From the human T2T-CHM13v2.0 reference genome, Homo sapiens: a stretch of DNA of 64,000 nt. Location of the stretch: assembly GCF_009914755.1 (NCBI RefSeq), contig NC_060930.1; one strand, given 5' to 3'. Position 1 is the stretch's first letter, and every line of letters begins with the position of its first letter. This document shows positions 14,259 through 47,735 of this stretch, piece after piece. The position numbers and the translations under genes were made by a program. Under the pieces are notes generated by a model that saw only the letters and a program-made list of their open reading frames with translations, was not told the origin of the DNA and made no database searches.

Positions 14259-14651
14259 GCAAAACTTCCATCCTGTCCACGTGAAGTTGTCGCTGCCTTA
14301 GAGAGGGGGAAAGAGCTGCGGGAAAAGCCGGGGAGTGACGACTGCGGCGGCTGGGCGCGCTCTCTCATTTTCTTTTCTTCTCCTTTCCCCCCTGTCGCAG
14401 TCCGGAGTTTTGGCTCCTCTCCTTTCCTCCTCCCCCTCGGAGCCGGCTTCTCCCTCCGCCCCGCTTCTCCCCCGCTTGTGTACGCTATTTGTTGTGGGGT
14501 GGCCGAAGGGGATGTCCTGTTTTCACCAGAGGCACAGCGCGAAGGGGAAACTTCGACACTGGAAGGAACGAGAATAAATACTTAATTACGGACGCACTGA
14601 ACCGCGGCTGGGACAGACACTTCGGGAACCCGAGGCGGACCGGGCGACGAG
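14259..14651 (+). other. EYA4: EYA4 non-coding exon 1 (5' start approximate)
   Basis: Lies in the CpG island and ends at a near-consensus donor GAG|GTGAGT (14652-14657). The 5' end is estimated from recalled mRNA UTR length and cannot be fixed from sequence alone. Confidence 0.8.
14512..14577 (+). other. uORF in exon 1, 21 aa (MSCFHQRHSAKGKLRHWKERE)
   Basis: Only ATG seen in the exon1+exon2 5'UTR; context GGGGATGT (purine at -3); TAA at 14575-14577. Confidence 0.65.
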
Positions 14652-40245: not shown

Positions 40246-40671
<426 letters not shown>

Positions 40672-41895: not shown

Positions 41896-42201
41896 GGCTG
41901 GGCATGGTGGCTCATGCGTGTAATCCCAGCACTTTGAGAGGCTGAGGCAGGCAGATCACCTGAGGCCAGGGGTTCGAGAGCAGCCTGGCCAACATGGTGA
42001 GACCCTGTCTCTACTAAAAATGCAAAAATTAGCCAGGCGTGGTGGCACGCTCCTGTAGTCCCAGCTACTTGGGAGGCTGAGTCACAACAGTCACTTGAAC
42101 CCACGAGGCAGAGGTCGCAGTGAGCTGAGATTATGCCACTGCACTACAACCTGGGCGACAGAGCAGGACTTCATCTCAAAGACACAAAACAAACAAAAAA
42201 A
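41896..42201 (+). mobile_element. AluS
   Basis: Full dimer; TSD aatgtgtactgc. Confidence 0.95.
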
Positions 42202-44121
42202 CCGAATGTGTACTGCATCAACTTTCAGTGTGCTTGATAATCCACCATATCCTATATACCCTCCCTTCCCTTTTCATATGCAGTTTAAAATTGTGCTTTT
42301 CTTCGAAATGATGCTTTCCTAGTTTTGGAGTATTTTAAATCAATATCTCACTGAAACTGTCACATTATATACATGTGTTATTATTATTTTCTGACTTTTA
42401 AGAATGAAAAAAACATACCTTTGATCTGTGTCTCTGTTTATATATGCATAAAACTTTTGCAATTTACATTTTAAATTTCTCTTGTAATTTTTAAAACGTC
42501 TTGTGATCTAATAAGGAAAGTAACATGTACTTTGGAAAATATTGCAAAGCATAAAAGAAATTGAAGAAATTAAGACCATGCCTACTTGGATGCAGTAGGG
42601 AATATATGACTGGATATATGTAAAACTGAGCAAAACATCTACTGATATTGAATATTCAATAAACTGAATTGGCATCTGTATTAGGGTTCTCTAGAGGGAC
42701 AGAACTAATAGGATATATATATATATGGGAGTTTATTAAGTATTAACTTACACTTATTATTAACTTAACTTACCCTTAACAATCACAGGGTCCTCCAATA
42801 GGCTGTCTGCAAGCTGAGGAGCAAGGAGAGCCAGTGCGAGTCCCAAAACTGAAGCACTTGGAGCCTGATGTTCAAGGACAGGAAGTATCCAGCATGGGAG
42901 AAAGATATAGGCTGGAAGGCTAGGCCAGTCTCTCTTTTTCACATTTTTCTACCTGCTTTATATTCACTGGCAGCGGATTAGATTGTACCCACCAGATTAA
43001 GGGTGGATCTGCCTTCTTCAGCCCACTGACTCAAATGTTAATCTGTTTTGGCAACACCCTCACAGACACACCCAGGGTCAATACTTTGTATCCTTCAATC
43101 CAATCAAGTTGACATTCAGTATTAACCATCACAAGTCCACCCCTTGTCAACTTGAACCCATATACATCTCCTGAGATTATACATCATCTTCAAATAAAGA
43201 CAATAATAAGGTCATAATTATACCTAACATAATACAGCTGTCCTTTGTATAACCGGAAATGCACCAATCCCCAACCCAAATACTATTACATAAAGTTAAC
43301 AATATTTAAATGCCGATATGAAGTCAATAAATCTTATGTCACATGATAAAGGAAAAGGAAATAAAGGTATTTTCTTAGTACAAGTGTATACATGCACAAA
43401 CATGTTTTTAACAAAAGAAGGAGGAAATACTCATGACAATTACAGTCCCCGTTTCTGCAGTGGTCTCGTGGTCGTAGATGCTATTGATGACTAACTTCTT
43501 CTACTACCCATTCTGTATTCCCTTTGCCTTCAGCAAGCACCTCAACAGGTCATGTTTTTTTTTCCTTGTGGAGTGACCCAAACCTTCATTCCTGGGGGAT
43601 CTGGGCCATTTCTAGTCCTGCCTGGATTGGGCTGTTGTAGTTTCCCATTGACCTTAATCATAGGGCGTGGTAATACTAAGAGACACCCTAATGGATCTCC
43701 TGTATTCCATGCATACTCTTCCTTACCTCCGTTGTGGAGTAATAGACTGATTTCATCTTGAAAGTCTGGGTCAGTCAGTCACCCCAGCCAACAATGTAAC
43801 TCCCCTCTTAGCCTGTTGACTTAAAGGTAGGAGGAGCCCAAAGTGTCCAGGTGGCAATGTTAACATCCAGTTTAATGGAATCGTTGTTGTCTCTCCTGGT
43901 GGCAGTGTTCCTCCCTCTGGAACTAAGACCTCTAGGCCAGCAGAAGGTAATGTCGTGGGAACATTTTGCTAGTGGAAGGAAAAATTTTGCTAGTGAATCA
44001 CTAGGGGTGATGGTGAGTGGTGCCACTTCCACTTCCACCCTTGATTCGTGAACCCGTGAATCCTGGCTATGGGAGAGACAGTGCCATATATTGGATGCTG
44101 ATTCAGAGCGTACATGGCTTT

Positions 44122-44808
44122 CTAGAGAACTTTGCCCCAGCCCTGCAAAGTATTGTCACCTAGTTGGCATTGTAATTGTGACTTCAAAAGGCCATTCCAC
44201 CATTCTGTCAATCCAGCTGCTTCAGGATGATGGGGTACATGGTGAGACCAGTGAATTCTGTGAGCATGAGCCCATTGTCGCACTTCTTTATCCATAAAGT
44301 GAGTGCCTCGGTCAGAGGCAATGCTGTGTGGAATACCAAGACAGTGGAAAAGGCATTCCGTGAGTCCGTGGATGGTAGTCTTGGCAGAAGCATTGCGTGC
44401 AGAATAGGCAGACCCATATCCACAGTAAGTGTCTATTCCAGTGAGGACAAACCTCTTCCCTTTCCATGATGGAAGAGGTCCAATATAATCAACCTGCCAC
44501 CAGGTAGCTGGCTGATCACCCCGAGGAATGGTGCCACATCGAGGGCTCAGTGTTGCTCTCTGCTGCTGGCAAATTGGGCACTCAGCAGTGGCCGTAGCCA
44601 GTTTAGCCTTGGAGGATGGAAGTCCATGTTGCTGAGCCCATGTGTAACCTCCATCCCTGCCACCATGGCCACTTTGTTCATGGGCCCATTGGGCAATGAC
44701 AGGGGTGGCTGGGGAAAGAGGCTGAGTGGTGTCCACAGAATGGGTCATCCTATCCACTTGATTATTGAAATCCTCCTCTGCTGAAGTAACCCATTTGTGA
44801 GCACTCAT
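44122..44808 (-). pseudogene. HERV-L integrase coding remnant (228 open codons)
   Basis: HHCC zinc finger (HEQSGH...CPIC) and catalytic D (WQVDYIG), D (SDRGTHF), then 35 residues to E (GLTEWWNG). Terminated by TAG, after which the frame continues (KAMYALNQHP). Confidence 0.9.
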
Positions 44809-45729
44809 ATGGAATACAAATACCTTCCTGGTTTTTGATCACTCAGAGAGGTCTATTCACATATCTTTTCCCCAGATTTCTTTGTCACCAGTTTTCCAAT
44901 CCCGCTTCTTCCAAATCTCTGACCATCCAGCCAAAAACCATTGGCTACAGCCCATGAATCAGTACATAATCACACATCTGGGCATTTCTCCTTCATGCAA
45001 AGTGCACAACGAGGTGCACTGCTCAAAGTTCTGCCAACTGGGAAGATTTCCCTTCAGCGCTGTCCTTCAGAGATGTCCCAGAAAGGGGCTGTAGTGCTGC
45101 AGCTGTCCACTTTAGAGGGGTGCCTCCATATCATGCAGAACCATTTGTGAATCAGGCCCTAGTCTTCTCTTCCTCTGTCAACTGATCATAGGGAACTCCC
45201 GATGAGGGCATCGATGCAGCCTTGGGGAGAGAAGGTAGGGTGGCAGGAGTAGAGACCATGGACATTTGAGCCACTTCCTCATGAACTTACTTGTGCCTTC
45301 AGGACCTGCTCAAACCTGATCACATATATGCTACTTTCATTTGATGATAGAATGCTGCTCTGTACGACCTTCTTTATGGCCAGATGGGTCAGAAAGCTCC
45401 CAGTTCATGATAGCCAGTTAAGGTTGCATAGTGACTTGATGACTCGTAGTCAAACCTTCAGTTTCCACCAAAGCCCAGTAATGGGCCAAGAGCTGTCTCT
45501 CAAAAGGAAGGTAGTTATCTGTAGAAGATGGTTGGGCCTTGCTCCAAAATCCTAGAGGCCTTTGCTGTCATTCACCTATGGGGGCCTGGCAAAGGCTCCA
45601 AACAGCATCCCTATCTGCTACTGGCACCTCAAGCACCATTGGATCTGCTGGATCATATGGCCCAAGTGGCAGAACAGCTTGCACAGCAGCCTGGACCTGT
45701 TGCAGAGCCTTCTCCTGTTCTGGACCCCA

Positions 45730-45950
45730 GGCAGTTTTATTTGGTAAAGTGAATGATTAAAGGTCTTGGGGCCAAAATGATCTCAACCTATTTTCAAACT
45801 TTAAATGGGTTAGAAGCCTGGCTCGCTGGCATAGAGCTAGGCGTGGAATATGAGTCCCTAGTGGGCCACTTTTGGTAAGCAGAACTGGCACTGTGGGAGG
45901 AGCCAAACGCTGGGTTAAGGCACCCGATGCTGATGCTCATTAGACACCCC
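45730..45950 (+). pseudogene. 28S (LSU) rRNA-derived fragment, domain II
   Basis: Collinear with recalled human 28S GCAGTTTTATCCGGTAAAGCGAATGATTAGAGGTCTTGGGGCCGAAACGATCTCAACCTATTCTCAAACTTTAAATGGG...GTGGGCCACTTTTGGTAAGCAGAACTGGCG...GGTTAAGGCGCCCGATGCCGACGCTCATCAGAC. Most differences are CpG>TpG/CpA. Confidence 0.93.
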
Positions 45951-46817
45951 ACTCTTGTTACCAAAATCTGTATTAGGGTTCTCTATAGGGACAGAACTAA
46001 TAGGAGATATATATATGTATATATATATATATATATATAAAGGGAAGTTTATTAAATATTAACTCACATGTTCACAAGGTTTCACAATAGGCTGCTTGCA
46101 AGCTGAGGAGCAAGGAGAGCCAGTCCGATTCCCCAAACTGAAGCACTTGGAGTCCAGTGTTTGAGGGCAGGAGGCATCTAGCACGGGAGAAAGATGTAGG
46201 CTGGGAAGCTAGGCCCGTCTCTTTTTTTCACACTTTTCTGCCTGCTTTATATTCGCTGGCAGCTGATTAGATTGTGCCTGCCAGATTAAGGGTGGATCTG
46301 CCTTCTTCAGCCCACTGACTCAAAATGTTAATCTCCTTTGGCAACACCCTCACAGACATACCCAGGATCAATACTTTGTATCCTTCAATCCAATCAAGTT
46401 GACACTCAGTATTAACCACCACAGTGTCCGATTGTTTCTTTAGATTGTAATACTCTTTTCCATTTAAATTGTATTTTCAGAAATATTTAATGTCAGTAGA
46501 TATTTCTTGAAATGTGACTTCAATGATTATGTTCATCTATGATGAACAACTTTTTAAATCTAAATTGTTTTTATTATAATCTTTTAATTTTTCTTTTTTA
46601 GAATTAGAATTTGAACACTAGAAATGTACCATTGCAATTTTAAATTACATTTCATTGTGAATTTGAACACAGTTTTATGATAATTGAACATATTTCTGTA
46701 GGGCATGTGCCTTTCTGTTTGAATTGTAAGAGCTCTTTATATGTTAAGAACATCAGCCCATTGTGTTTGGTATTTGCACAGGTATTTCTAGATTTTTCTG
46801 TGCCTTTTAATTTTCAT

Positions 46818-47637: not shown

Positions 47638-47735
47638 ATAGTCATTTTTACTTGAAGGAAGCTGCTTCTACTTGGGAGTGGCAGGAGAAGTGAGAAAACC
47701 ACATGGAAGACTCCCAGGATTTAAATGAACAATCA
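47638..47735 (+). other. EYA4: EYA4 exon 2 (65 nt 5'UTR plus 33 nt CDS)
   Basis: Polypyrimidine tract ttttcccctttgtttccatcttcttgttttAG ends at 47637; donor TCA|GTAAGT. Confidence 0.93.
47703..47735 (+). CDS. EYA4: First coding segment (codons 1-11) of Eyes absent homolog 4; CDS continues in exons beyond the window
   Basis: ATGGAAGACTCCCAGGATTTAAATGAACAATCA encodes MEDSQDLNEQS, matching the recalled EYA4 N-terminus (MEDSQDLNEQSVKK...). In-frame TGA at 47691-47693 upstream; phase-0 donor GTAAGT at 47736. Confidence 0.95.

What the first reader, a model, noticed from the sequence alone, without database searches (positions are those of the whole stretch)
45720..45968. HERV-L provirus whose gag-pro-RT is replaced by an antisense 28S rRNA fragment
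Seen: pol sequence stops at ...ctggacccca (~45729). About 220 bp of 28S rRNA-like sequence follows and joins directly to the ~20 nt PBS remnant and 5' LTR. There is no poly(A) tail and no TSD, both junctions fall on short CCCA/CCA stretches, and the insert is heavily CpG-decayed, so it is old. Known: HERV-L has gag-pro-RT here (several kb missing), and L1-mobilised rRNA copies normally show TSDs. Inference: this is a replacement via microhomology, not an ordinary retrocopy. The rRNA is antisense to the proviral RNA, so a simple minus-strand switch onto co-packaged 28S does not explain it. Options are DNA break repair capturing rDNA/rRNA cDNA, or a non-autonomous HERV-L lineage that propagated with the insert. 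An LTR-driven transcript would carry antisense-28S near its 5' end, while EYA4 pre-mRNA carries it in sense.
Basis: partly seen in the sequence, partly recalled or inferred. Interest (0 to 1): 0.8.

Follow-up and report, generated by a model that had tools for sequence, protein, structure and literature searches.

The report
Ribosomal RNA piece captured by HERV-L
An ancient, dead retrovirus copy in an EYA4 intron carries a 222-base piece of 28S ribosomal RNA right after its primer-binding site, most likely picked up by a copying error during reverse transcription; it is a molecular fossil with no sign of a function.

Summary
A minus-strand HERV-L provirus (42677-46423) has two LTRs and a CpG-decayed 5-bp target duplication. 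It lacks about 3.0 kb (leader, gag, pro, RT polymerase). A 222-nt 28S rRNA segment sits on the plus strand at 45727-45948, between a complete 18-nt tRNA-Leu PBS and pol. It matches rDNA at 87% (Rfam E 2e-33).

New here: the PBS-to-pol deletion is not special to this locus. At least 10 other genomic HERV-L copies have the same fusion without rRNA, against 583 matches to the intact pol-site 21-mer. They do not form a clade. The pol breakpoint carries GAGTGGGGT, identical to the 3' end that plus-strand strong-stop DNA acquires by copying tRNA-Leu(UAA). HERV-L's own PBS matches that tRNA at only 15 of 18 positions.

The 28S piece is bounded by ACCCCA and CCAC, both complementary to that 9-mer. Both rRNA junctions are single copy.

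Best reading (0.6): a plus-strand transfer error. The strong-stop DNA was extended on 28S rRNA and then landed on the pol/PBS motif. This explains the antisense orientation. HIV-1 proviruses with tRNA inserts are the closest precedent.

No lineage propagated with the insert. Later break repair is much less likely. Interest is moderate.

The parts
42672..42676 (.). Target-site duplication copy GCATC, flanking the 3' LTR
   Evidence: Read. It pairs with GTGTC at 46424-46428. The two differ only as the two CpG-decay products of one GCGTC (inference).
42677..43133 (-). 3' LTR of the HERV-L provirus
   Evidence: Direct repeats with the 5' LTR at 87-96% identity. Global alignment gives K2P 0.157, inflated by a misaligned TA repeat.
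43134..45729 (-). Retained internal region: end of RT (connection), RNase H-like, integrase, dUTPase and 3' untranslated part. All frames are broken by stops.
   Evidence: Pfam: rve in 44125-44838, dUTPase in 43774-43968, RT_RNaseH (weak) in 45421-45567. 28 stops in one full-length frame. 83-87% identity to the deleted copies over the whole internal region.
45724..45729 (.). ACCCCA (TGGGGT in proviral sense): the last pol bases at the breakpoint and the left copy of the 6-nt repeat flanking the insert
   Evidence: Intact copies read ...TTTTGAG-TGGGGT-CCAGAA at this place.
45730..45945 (+). 28S rRNA-derived segment, sense on the + strand and antisense to the provirus. With shared bases, BLAST gives 45727-45948.
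45946..45963 (-). Complete 18-nt primer-binding site complementary to the tRNA-Leu(UAA) 3' end, with 2 substitutions. Its last 6 nt are the right copy of the repeat.
   Evidence: tRNA-Leu(TAA) gene found by ARAGORN in L091; its 3' end was read.
45964..45968 (-). 5-nt spacer between U5 and the PBS (GATTT in proviral sense)
   Evidence: The same spacer is present in 9 of 9 intact 5' ends. All 10 deleted copies have the same or a one-base variant.
45969..46423 (-). 5' LTR
46424..46428 (.). Target-site duplication copy GTGTC
   Evidence: Read.

Best explanation
This is a fossil of an error in the second (plus-strand) transfer of HERV-L reverse transcription.

Plus-strand strong-stop DNA (U3-R-U5-PBS) ends with the 18 nt copied from the tRNA-Leu(UAA) primer, ...GAGTGGGGT-3'. 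Instead of pairing with the PBS complement on minus-strand DNA, this free 3' end paired with ACCCCA in a 28S rRNA molecule present in the capsid. It was then extended on that rRNA for about 216-222 nt. This writes the complement of 28S into the proviral sense strand, which is why the insert is antisense.

The new 3' end (...GCGTGG) then landed on the complement of GAGTGG|GGT on minus-strand DNA. That motif exists at the pol breakpoint of full-length HERV-L and at the PBS/pol fusion of already-deleted HERV-L RNAs. Synthesis went on from there.

The product was integrated normally, with two LTRs and a 5-bp duplication, roughly 35 million years ago on a rough LTR clock.

The 3-kb gag-pro-RT deletion is a recurrent hot-spot product of the same mis-transfer. 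The tRNA-copied 3' end matches the pol site at 9 of 9 positions but HERV-L's own PBS at only 15 of 18.

Shown: anatomy, breakpoints, microhomologies, recurrence of the deletion, single-copy status of the insert. Inferred: the order of template switches, whether the parent RNA was full-length or already deleted, and presence of 28S rRNA in the particle.
For: 1. Orientation. 28S is sense on the + strand and the provirus is on the - strand. Only DNA of plus-strand polarity copied from rRNA gives this.

2. Position. The insert begins immediately after nucleotide 18 of the PBS, which is the natural 3' end of plus-strand strong-stop DNA.

3. PBS sequence. The tRNA-Leu(TAA) gene 3' end is ...GAACCCCACTCCTGGTA. 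The tRNA-templated end is therefore ...GAGTGGGGT. The window's PBS has this GGGGT form. Intact HERV-L 5' ends read GAGTGG|TTCTAGAGG in 9 of 9 loci. That 21-mer has 515 genomic matches at up to 2 mismatches, against a control of 4.

4. Pol site. It reads TTTTGAG-TGGGGT-CCAGAA in 18 of 20 intact loci (the other two read TAAG), with 583 genomic matches against a control of 7.

5. Recurrent deletion. The same PBS-to-pol fusion without rRNA occurs at 10 loci, and 7 of the 10 are complete two-LTR elements. One search adds 2 probable further loci.

6. No clade. The deleted copies do not cluster in a 1.4-kb pol tree: 8 changes for 10 rows, shuffled mean 8.4. One deleted and one full copy are starred sisters. 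The deleted copies also carry two LTR-tail types, 6 and 4 of 10.

7. Microhomology. In rDNA the 28S segment is bounded by ...CAGACCCCAG and ...GCCACGCAG, giving 6-nt and 4-nt identities with the 9-mer.

8. Age. Non-CpG divergence of the insert is 10 of 174 (5.7%). The provirus's own terminal branches are 0.073 for pol and 0.057-0.071 for the LTRs. The insert is therefore about as old as the integration.

9. Precedent. HIV-1 proviruses with LTR-PBS-tRNA(Lys3) complement (7-54 nt) followed by a large deletion are attributed to deferred second-strand transfer, 44 sequences (PMC12657518, passages read). Host-RNA 'patch repair' by microhomology is reviewed in PMC4997597 (passages read).

10. A fossil of tRNA read-through exists in this genome. 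L092 has an LTR end, the PBS, and the rest of a 42-nt run (starting within the PBS) that matches the tRNA-Leu(TAA) complement at 38 of 42 positions.
Against: - No direct evidence exists that the event happened before integration. Orthologous loci in other primates could not be examined.
- The PBS-side junction is not a clean overlap. There are 2 extra nucleotides (AC at 45944-45945). At 45730 the window has G where both candidate parents have C. Both need a later mutation or a transfer-associated error.
- The GGT of the PBS could equally come from the tRNA copy, from 28S, or from an already-deleted parent.
- Microhomology at both junctions is also what break repair would use.
- 28S rRNA in ERV-L particles is assumed. 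The review read names 5S rRNA, 7SL, tRNAs, U6 and Y RNAs as packaged, not 28S.
- I looked for a structural reason for copying to stop at the 28S 5' boundary and found none. The upstream 100 nt are 59% GC and fold no more strongly than the fragment.
- The product would start as a heteroduplex whose resolution is unknown.
Confidence: 0.6

Rival explanations
1. Insertion after integration. An already-deleted HERV-L provirus suffered a nick or double-strand break exactly at the PBS/pol fusion. A 28S cDNA or rDNA fragment was captured there by microhomology-mediated repair or by endonuclease-independent L1 reverse transcription. This would leave the 6-nt ACCCCA duplication.
For: The insert is flanked by a 6-nt direct repeat, as a staggered insertion into a deleted element would be. 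Microhomology is present at both junctions. Deleted elements without the insert exist as possible targets.
Against: - The break would have to fall by chance on the single position that is the end of the 18-nt PBS, out of about 3.4 kb of provirus.
- There is no poly(A). The nicked-strand sequence GGGGT/CCAGAA is unlike the L1 endonuclease site TTTT/AA (site recalled, not from a call).
- Insert divergence is that of the provirus itself.
Confidence: 0.12
2. Capture during minus-strand synthesis ('patch repair'). An antisense rDNA transcript, or a 28S cDNA made in the particle, served as a tertiary template bridging the pol site and the PBS.
For: Sequence-compatible. A nascent minus strand ending ...ACCCCAC could pair with GUGG of an antisense 28S RNA and re-enter at UGG(GGU) of the PBS (junctions). 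Tertiary-template insertions by microhomology are documented for retroviruses (PMC4997597, passages).
Against: It needs an antisense 28S RNA, which is far rarer than 28S rRNA (general knowledge). Re-entry exactly at the PBS end would be a coincidence. With HERV-L's own PBS (GAGTGG|TTC) the re-entry homology is only 3 nt.
Confidence: 0.1
3. A 28S rRNA fragment ending in ...ACCCCA-3' served as the minus-strand primer in place of tRNA-Leu, on a deleted HERV-L RNA. Plus-strand strong-stop synthesis then copied the whole RNA primer.
For: In minus-strand polarity the window reads 28S sense, then PBS complement, then U5 complement. This is the layout of a primer-cDNA chimera. A deleted RNA offers UGGGGU for 6 bp of pairing.
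Against: It needs a 28S cleavage product with exactly that 3' end and priming from only 6 bp. The retained 12 nt of tRNA-type PBS upstream would then be template-derived, which is possible but adds nothing. The extra AC is unexplained.
Confidence: 0.05
4. A non-autonomous HERV-L subfamily that multiplied carrying the 28S insert.
For: None found. Only the deletion, without the insert, is shared with other copies.
Against: - 65-mer across the pol/28S junction: 99 candidates, 40 scored, only the window spans it.
- 71-mer across the 28S/PBS junction: 18 of 18 candidates scored, only the window spans it.
- 21-mer across the 28S/PBS junction, up to 3 mismatches: 32 matches against a control of 31.
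- 21-mer across the pol/28S junction: only the window at 0-1 mismatch. In total 101 matches against a control of 24; the listed ones are at places other than the deleted copies.
Confidence: 0.01

Closest known systems
HIV-1 defective proviruses from aberrant (deferred) second-strand transfer, with a tRNA(Lys3) insert after the PBS (Commun Biol 2025, PMC12657518; passages read)
   Same: The 5' LTR and full PBS are kept. A host-RNA complement starts right after the PBS. A large internal deletion follows, landing downstream on minus-strand DNA.
   Different: Here the copied RNA is 28S rRNA, not the attached primer tRNA. An intermolecular jump at 6-nt homology is therefore needed. The insert is 222 nt rather than 7-54 nt. 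It is a germline fossil tens of millions of years old.
Retroviral 'patch repair' or tertiary-template insertion of host RNA at non-homologous recombination junctions (reviewed in PMC4997597; the primary papers cited there were not read, and PMC2168973 is not held)
   Same: A piece of host RNA is spliced in by reverse transcriptase, using fortuitous microhomology at both ends, together with a deletion.
   Different: The classical cases arise in minus-strand synthesis. Copying the host RNA itself would then leave the patch in sense (my inference). Here the patch is antisense and sits at the strong-stop terminus.
L1-mobilised rRNA or small-RNA retrocopies and L1 template-switch chimeras (recalled; no call)
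   Same: A genomic copy of a fragment of an abundant non-coding RNA, CpG-decayed.
   Different: There is no poly(A) and no L1 endonuclease site. The flanking repeat is 6 nt and coincides with the PBS/pol motif. The insert lies inside a provirus exactly at the PBS end.
HERV-L (ERV-L, class III) proviruses with MLT2A-type LTRs (family names recalled)
   Same: Paired LTRs, tRNA-Leu PBS, pol with dUTPase after integrase, 5-bp target duplication, 83-87% identity to other genomic copies.
   Different: It lacks about 3.0 kb (leader, gag, pro, RT) and carries the 28S segment.

Membership tests
HERV-L / ERV-L provirus | Two LTRs in direct orientation flanked by a short target duplication | tested here: met
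   LTRs at 42677-43133 and 45969-46423. Flanks are GCATC / GTGTC, 3 of 5 identical; both differences are CpG-type transitions.
HERV-L / ERV-L provirus | PBS complementary to tRNA-Leu | tested here: met
   16 of 18 match to the complement of the tRNA-Leu(TAA) 3' end plus CCA.
HERV-L / ERV-L provirus | pol with integrase followed by dUTPase; homology to other genomic HERV-L copies | tested here: met
   rve 4.4e-15 and dUTPase 5.5e-7. 82-88% identity over 1.4 kb to the full-length-aligning loci.
HERV-L / ERV-L provirus | gag, protease and RT polymerase domain present | tested here: not met
   pol homology ends at 45729. About 3.0 kb is absent.
Aberrant second-strand-transfer provirus (HIV-1 type, PMC12657518) | Intact 5' LTR and complete PBS, with the non-viral insert beginning directly after the PBS | tested here: met
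   The 18-nt PBS is at 45946-45963 and 28S-derived bases run up to 45945.
Aberrant second-strand-transfer provirus (HIV-1 type, PMC12657518) | Insert is the complement of a host RNA in proviral sense orientation | tested here: met
   28S is sense on + and the provirus is on -.
Aberrant second-strand-transfer provirus (HIV-1 type, PMC12657518) | Large deletion from the PBS to a downstream viral position | tested here: met
   About 3.0 kb is missing. The landing site is the GAGTGGGGT motif in pol.
Aberrant second-strand-transfer provirus (HIV-1 type, PMC12657518) | Insert derives from read-through of the primer tRNA | tested here: not met
   After the PBS the window reads GTCTAATGAGC... (28S complement), not TCGAAC... 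(tRNA complement).
L1-mediated retrocopy of rRNA | 3' poly(A) and a target duplication of about 7-20 bp at a TTTT/AA-like site (features recalled) | tested here: not met
   There is no A-run at either end. The flanking repeat is 6 nt (ACCCCA). The site sequence is GGGGT/CCAGAA.
Propagated non-autonomous subfamily carrying the insert | Several loci share the insert junctions | tested here: not met
   Only the window spans either junction. These searches score only the best candidates, so very diverged copies could be missed.
Recurrent PBS-pol deleted HERV-L form | LTR, spacer and TGGTACCAGGAG-TGGGGT-CCAGAA fusion | tested here: met
   The window has both halves of this fusion, separated by the 28S piece. 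10 other loci have the uninterrupted fusion.

The most novel reading that the evidence does not exclude
HERV-L may have carried a built-in hot spot for plus-strand transfer errors. The 3' end copied from tRNA-Leu(UAA) fits a 9-mer in pol better than the family's own 15/18 PBS. This hot spot would have spawned about 2% deleted proviruses again and again. This locus would be the one germline fossil in which strong-stop DNA was extended on 28S rRNA. If so, strand-transfer errors and the RNA content of the particles of a retrovirus extinct for tens of millions of years can be read from genome sequence. Antisense host-RNA inserts directly after ERV PBSs would then be a searchable class.
Probability: 0.35. 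Interest if true: 0.55.

Novelty: new variant of a known kind. Interest (0 to 1): 0.4.

Why it matters
This is a clean natural record of a rare step in retroviral replication. It shows a plus-strand strong-stop DNA using a non-primer host RNA as template, preserved in the human germline.

It also exposed two things about HERV-L that I did not find in print with the six literature searches on these topics. Most subscription-journal papers are not in that library.
- A recurrent 3-kb PBS-to-pol deletion, in about 2% of copies.
- A 15/18 PBS whose mismatch with the tRNA-copied end may drive that deletion.

It suggests a simple genome-wide screen: host-RNA complements starting at PBS nucleotide 19.

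Nothing points to a function for EYA4 or for the cell. The element is intronic, decayed and single copy.

Tried and rejected
- GC-rich block in 28S. I tested whether copying of 28S stopped at a GC-rich or strongly folded block. The 100 nt upstream of the fragment are 59% GC. The 150 nt upstream fold at -45.4 kcal/mol, against -50.8 and -59.6 for stretches inside the fragment. No support; idea dropped.
- Are the deleted copies one lineage? The pol tree (27 rows) is star-like with no clustering of deleted copies. Before building it I dropped 4 of the 20 intact-type loci (L061, L068, L071, L073) for short alignments, and cut 6 rows to their aligned part. The LTR tree (21 rows) is unresolved, has no starred branch, and is disturbed by simple repeats and long branches. 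One origin is therefore neither shown nor strictly excluded.
- Whole-region three-frame Pfam scan. Six open frames were scanned instead, so small remnants in short frames could be missed.
- Non-rDNA genomic 28S copies closer to the insert than rDNA. The search is saturated by rDNA: 2112 candidates, 40 scored, and apart from the window itself all 39 are chr13 rDNA at 87%. This was not resolved.
- Literature on HERV-L with 28S, LSU-rRNA with ERVL, and patch repair with 28S gave nothing relevant. The primary paper on tertiary-template insertions (PMC2168973) is not held. Supplements of PMC12657518, which may list non-tRNA inserts, were not opened.
Full report
**What is there**

The window is T2T chr6:134416001-134480000. 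A provirus lies on the minus strand in the EYA4 intron between exons 14259-14651 and 47638-47735 (hub annotation).

- The two LTRs are at 42677-43133 (3') and 45969-46423 (5'). They pair at 87-96% identity in blocks, with K2P 0.157 overall. That value is inflated by a misaligned TA repeat. It gives roughly 36 My at 2.2e-9 per site per year, a rough figure.
- The flanks read GCATC (42672-42676) and GTGTC (46424-46428). These are the two CpG-decay products of one 5-bp duplication (inference).
- The retained internal part (43134-45729) encodes broken remains of the RNase H-like region, the integrase core (Pfam rve, 4.4e-15) and dUTPase (5.5e-7). One full-length frame alone has 28 stops.

**The insert**

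- Rfam's eukaryotic LSU rRNA model matches the plus strand at 136 bits, E 2.1e-33.
- BLAST against the same genome's rDNA aligns window 45727-45948 (222 nt) at 87% identity.
- 17 of 40 CpG positions and 10 of 174 non-CpG positions are changed.
- The non-CpG figure (5.7%) is close to the provirus's own terminal branch lengths: 0.073 in pol and 0.057-0.071 in the LTRs. The insert is therefore about as old as the integration.

**The breakpoints**

- HERV-L homology ends exactly at 45729. All 39 non-self hits scored match only query bases 1-32.
- Eight of the nine loci read continue ...GGACCCCA|CTCAAAAC.... In proviral sense the site is TTTTGAG-TGGGGT-CCAGAA.
- On the other side, PBS plus LTR homology resumes at 45946-45949.
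- The PBS (45946-45963) is a complete 18-mer, TGGTAACAAGAGTGGGGT in proviral sense. It differs at 2 positions from the complement of the tRNA-Leu(TAA) 3' end plus CCA. That tRNA gene was found at L091 by ARAGORN and its 3' end was read.
- In rDNA the captured segment is bounded by ...GCCAC|GCAG... and ...CAG|ACCCCA|G.
- The insert is thus flanked by ACCCCA on both sides (45724-45729 and 45946-45951). The pol-side junction shares CCAC.
- Two blemishes remain. There is an extra AC at 45944-45945. Position 45730 is G where both 28S and pol have C.

**The deletion is recurrent**

- One of the loci fetched for the pol side (L034) showed pol fused directly to the PBS and LTR.
- A search with that fusion found 10 loci that span it: 527 candidates, 40 scored. 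All ten read LTR-spacer-PBS-TGGGGT (or a one- to two-base variant of it) followed by pol sequence (CCAGAA, with point variants).
- After fetching 5 kb around each, 7 of the 10 are complete two-LTR elements of about 3.4 kb. The other 3 have further truncations.
- A 21-mer for the fusion has 14 matches at up to 2 mismatches (control 4). Seven are known loci and two are probable new ones.
- The intact pol-site 21-mer has 583 matches (control 7). The deleted form is therefore about 2% of copies.
- In intact copies the PBS and the pol site lie 3,006-3,049 bp apart (seven same-locus pairs I compared from the lists).
- In a 1.4-kb pol tree of 27 rows the deleted copies do not cluster: 8 changes for 10 rows, shuffled mean 8.4. 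The window groups (95/83) with one deleted and one full-length copy, which are themselves starred sisters.
- Deleted copies carry two LTR-tail types, 6 and 4 of 10.
- Recurrent origin is the simpler reading. A short-lived trans-mobilised lineage is not excluded.

**Why this site**

- HERV-L's own 5' end reads TGGTACCAGGAGTGG|TTCTAGAGG in 9 of 9 loci. That 21-mer has 515 genomic matches (control 4). It matches the tRNA at only 15 of 18 positions.
- Plus-strand strong-stop DNA copies the tRNA itself and so ends ...GAGTGGGGT-3'. This is identical over 9 nt to the pol site.
- A 3' end that is mismatched at its proper acceptor but perfectly matched 3 kb downstream is a plausible cause of the hot spot. 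This is inference, not a test.

**Mechanism proposed**

The same free 3' end (TGGGGT) can pair with ACCCCA in 28S rRNA. Extension on the rRNA writes its complement into the plus strand. This explains both the antisense orientation and the start of the insert at PBS nucleotide 19.

After about 216-222 nt, the new end (...GCGTGG) resembles GAGTGG. It landed on the complement of the 9-mer, either in pol of a full-length template or at the fusion of an already-deleted template. The sequence cannot tell which.

Close precedents:
- HIV-1 proviruses with LTR, PBS and a tRNA(Lys3) complement of 7-54 nt followed by a large deletion. There are 44 sequences, attributed to deferred second-strand transfer (PMC12657518, passages).
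- Host-RNA 'patch repair' by microhomology (PMC4997597, passages).
- A fossil of tRNA read-through in this same genome. L092 has an LTR end, the PBS, and the rest of a 42-nt run (starting within the PBS) that matches the tRNA-Leu(TAA) complement at 38 of 42 positions.

**Rivals**

- Later break repair or endonuclease-independent L1 insertion into a deleted provirus would need the break to fall on the one position that ends the PBS. There is no poly(A) and no L1-like site.
- Minus-strand patch repair needs an antisense 28S RNA and a coincidental re-entry point.
- Priming by a 28S fragment needs a specific cleavage end and only 6 bp of pairing.
- A lineage that spread with the insert is excluded at the sensitivity used. 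Only the window spans either junction. The 28S/PBS junction 21-mer is at control level, 32 against 31. For the pol/28S junction 21-mer only the window matches at 0-1 mismatch; in total it has 101 matches against a control of 24, and the listed ones are at places other than the deleted copies.

**Limits**

- No other primate genome could be searched, so the order of integration and insertion is inferred from position and divergence only.
- Genome searches score only the best candidates, so copy counts are lower bounds.
- Family names (MLT2A, MaLR) and the L1 site are recalled, not tested.

**Verdict**

The best reading is a plus-strand transfer error that captured 28S rRNA (confidence 0.6). It is a new variant of a known kind, of moderate interest, with no sign of function.

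Noticed in passing
L092 (G000:C2:121592860-121593040), bases 48-116: An LTR end (...GAATGGATTAATACA) and an 18-nt tRNA-Leu PBS are followed by further tRNA-Leu(TAA) complement; the 42-nt run, which starts within the PBS, matches at 38 of 42 positions. ARAGORN finds no tRNA gene there. It looks like a fossil of primer-tRNA read-through during plus-strand strong-stop synthesis, as described for HIV-1.
   Followed up: partly
Genome-wide: The exact 15-mer TACCAGGAGTGGGGT occurs 276 times (control 10). Most of the 100 listed copies continue with GYTGCTGWAAAGATACC, which is not HERV-L. A different, abundant tRNA-Leu-primed LTR family (probably MaLR-type; name recalled) keeps the full 18/18 PBS.
   Followed up: no
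L042-L050 and 515 genomic matches: HERV-L's own PBS region, TGGTACCAGGAGTGG-TTC..., equals the tRNA-Leu(TAA) complement with two G's missing (the tRNA complement reads ...GAGTGGGGTTCGAA). The family's PBS is thus 15/18, with a further TTC in register after a 2-nt gap.
   Followed up: partly
G000:C11:82485540 and G000:C12:14371732: Two further probable PBS-pol fusion copies that the BLAST search did not list. Their sequences were not fetched.
   Followed up: no
window 42713-42727 and 45999-46039: A (TA)n microsatellite inside U5 of both LTRs, longer in the 5' LTR. It disturbs the LTR-LTR alignment and so the age estimate.
   Followed up: no
window 40316-40600 (-) and 41897-42179 (+): Two Alu elements in opposite orientation about 1.3 kb apart, just beyond the 3' LTR. 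They appear as sub-threshold Metazoa_SRP and mir-1268/mir-3135 hits in Rfam.
   Followed up: no
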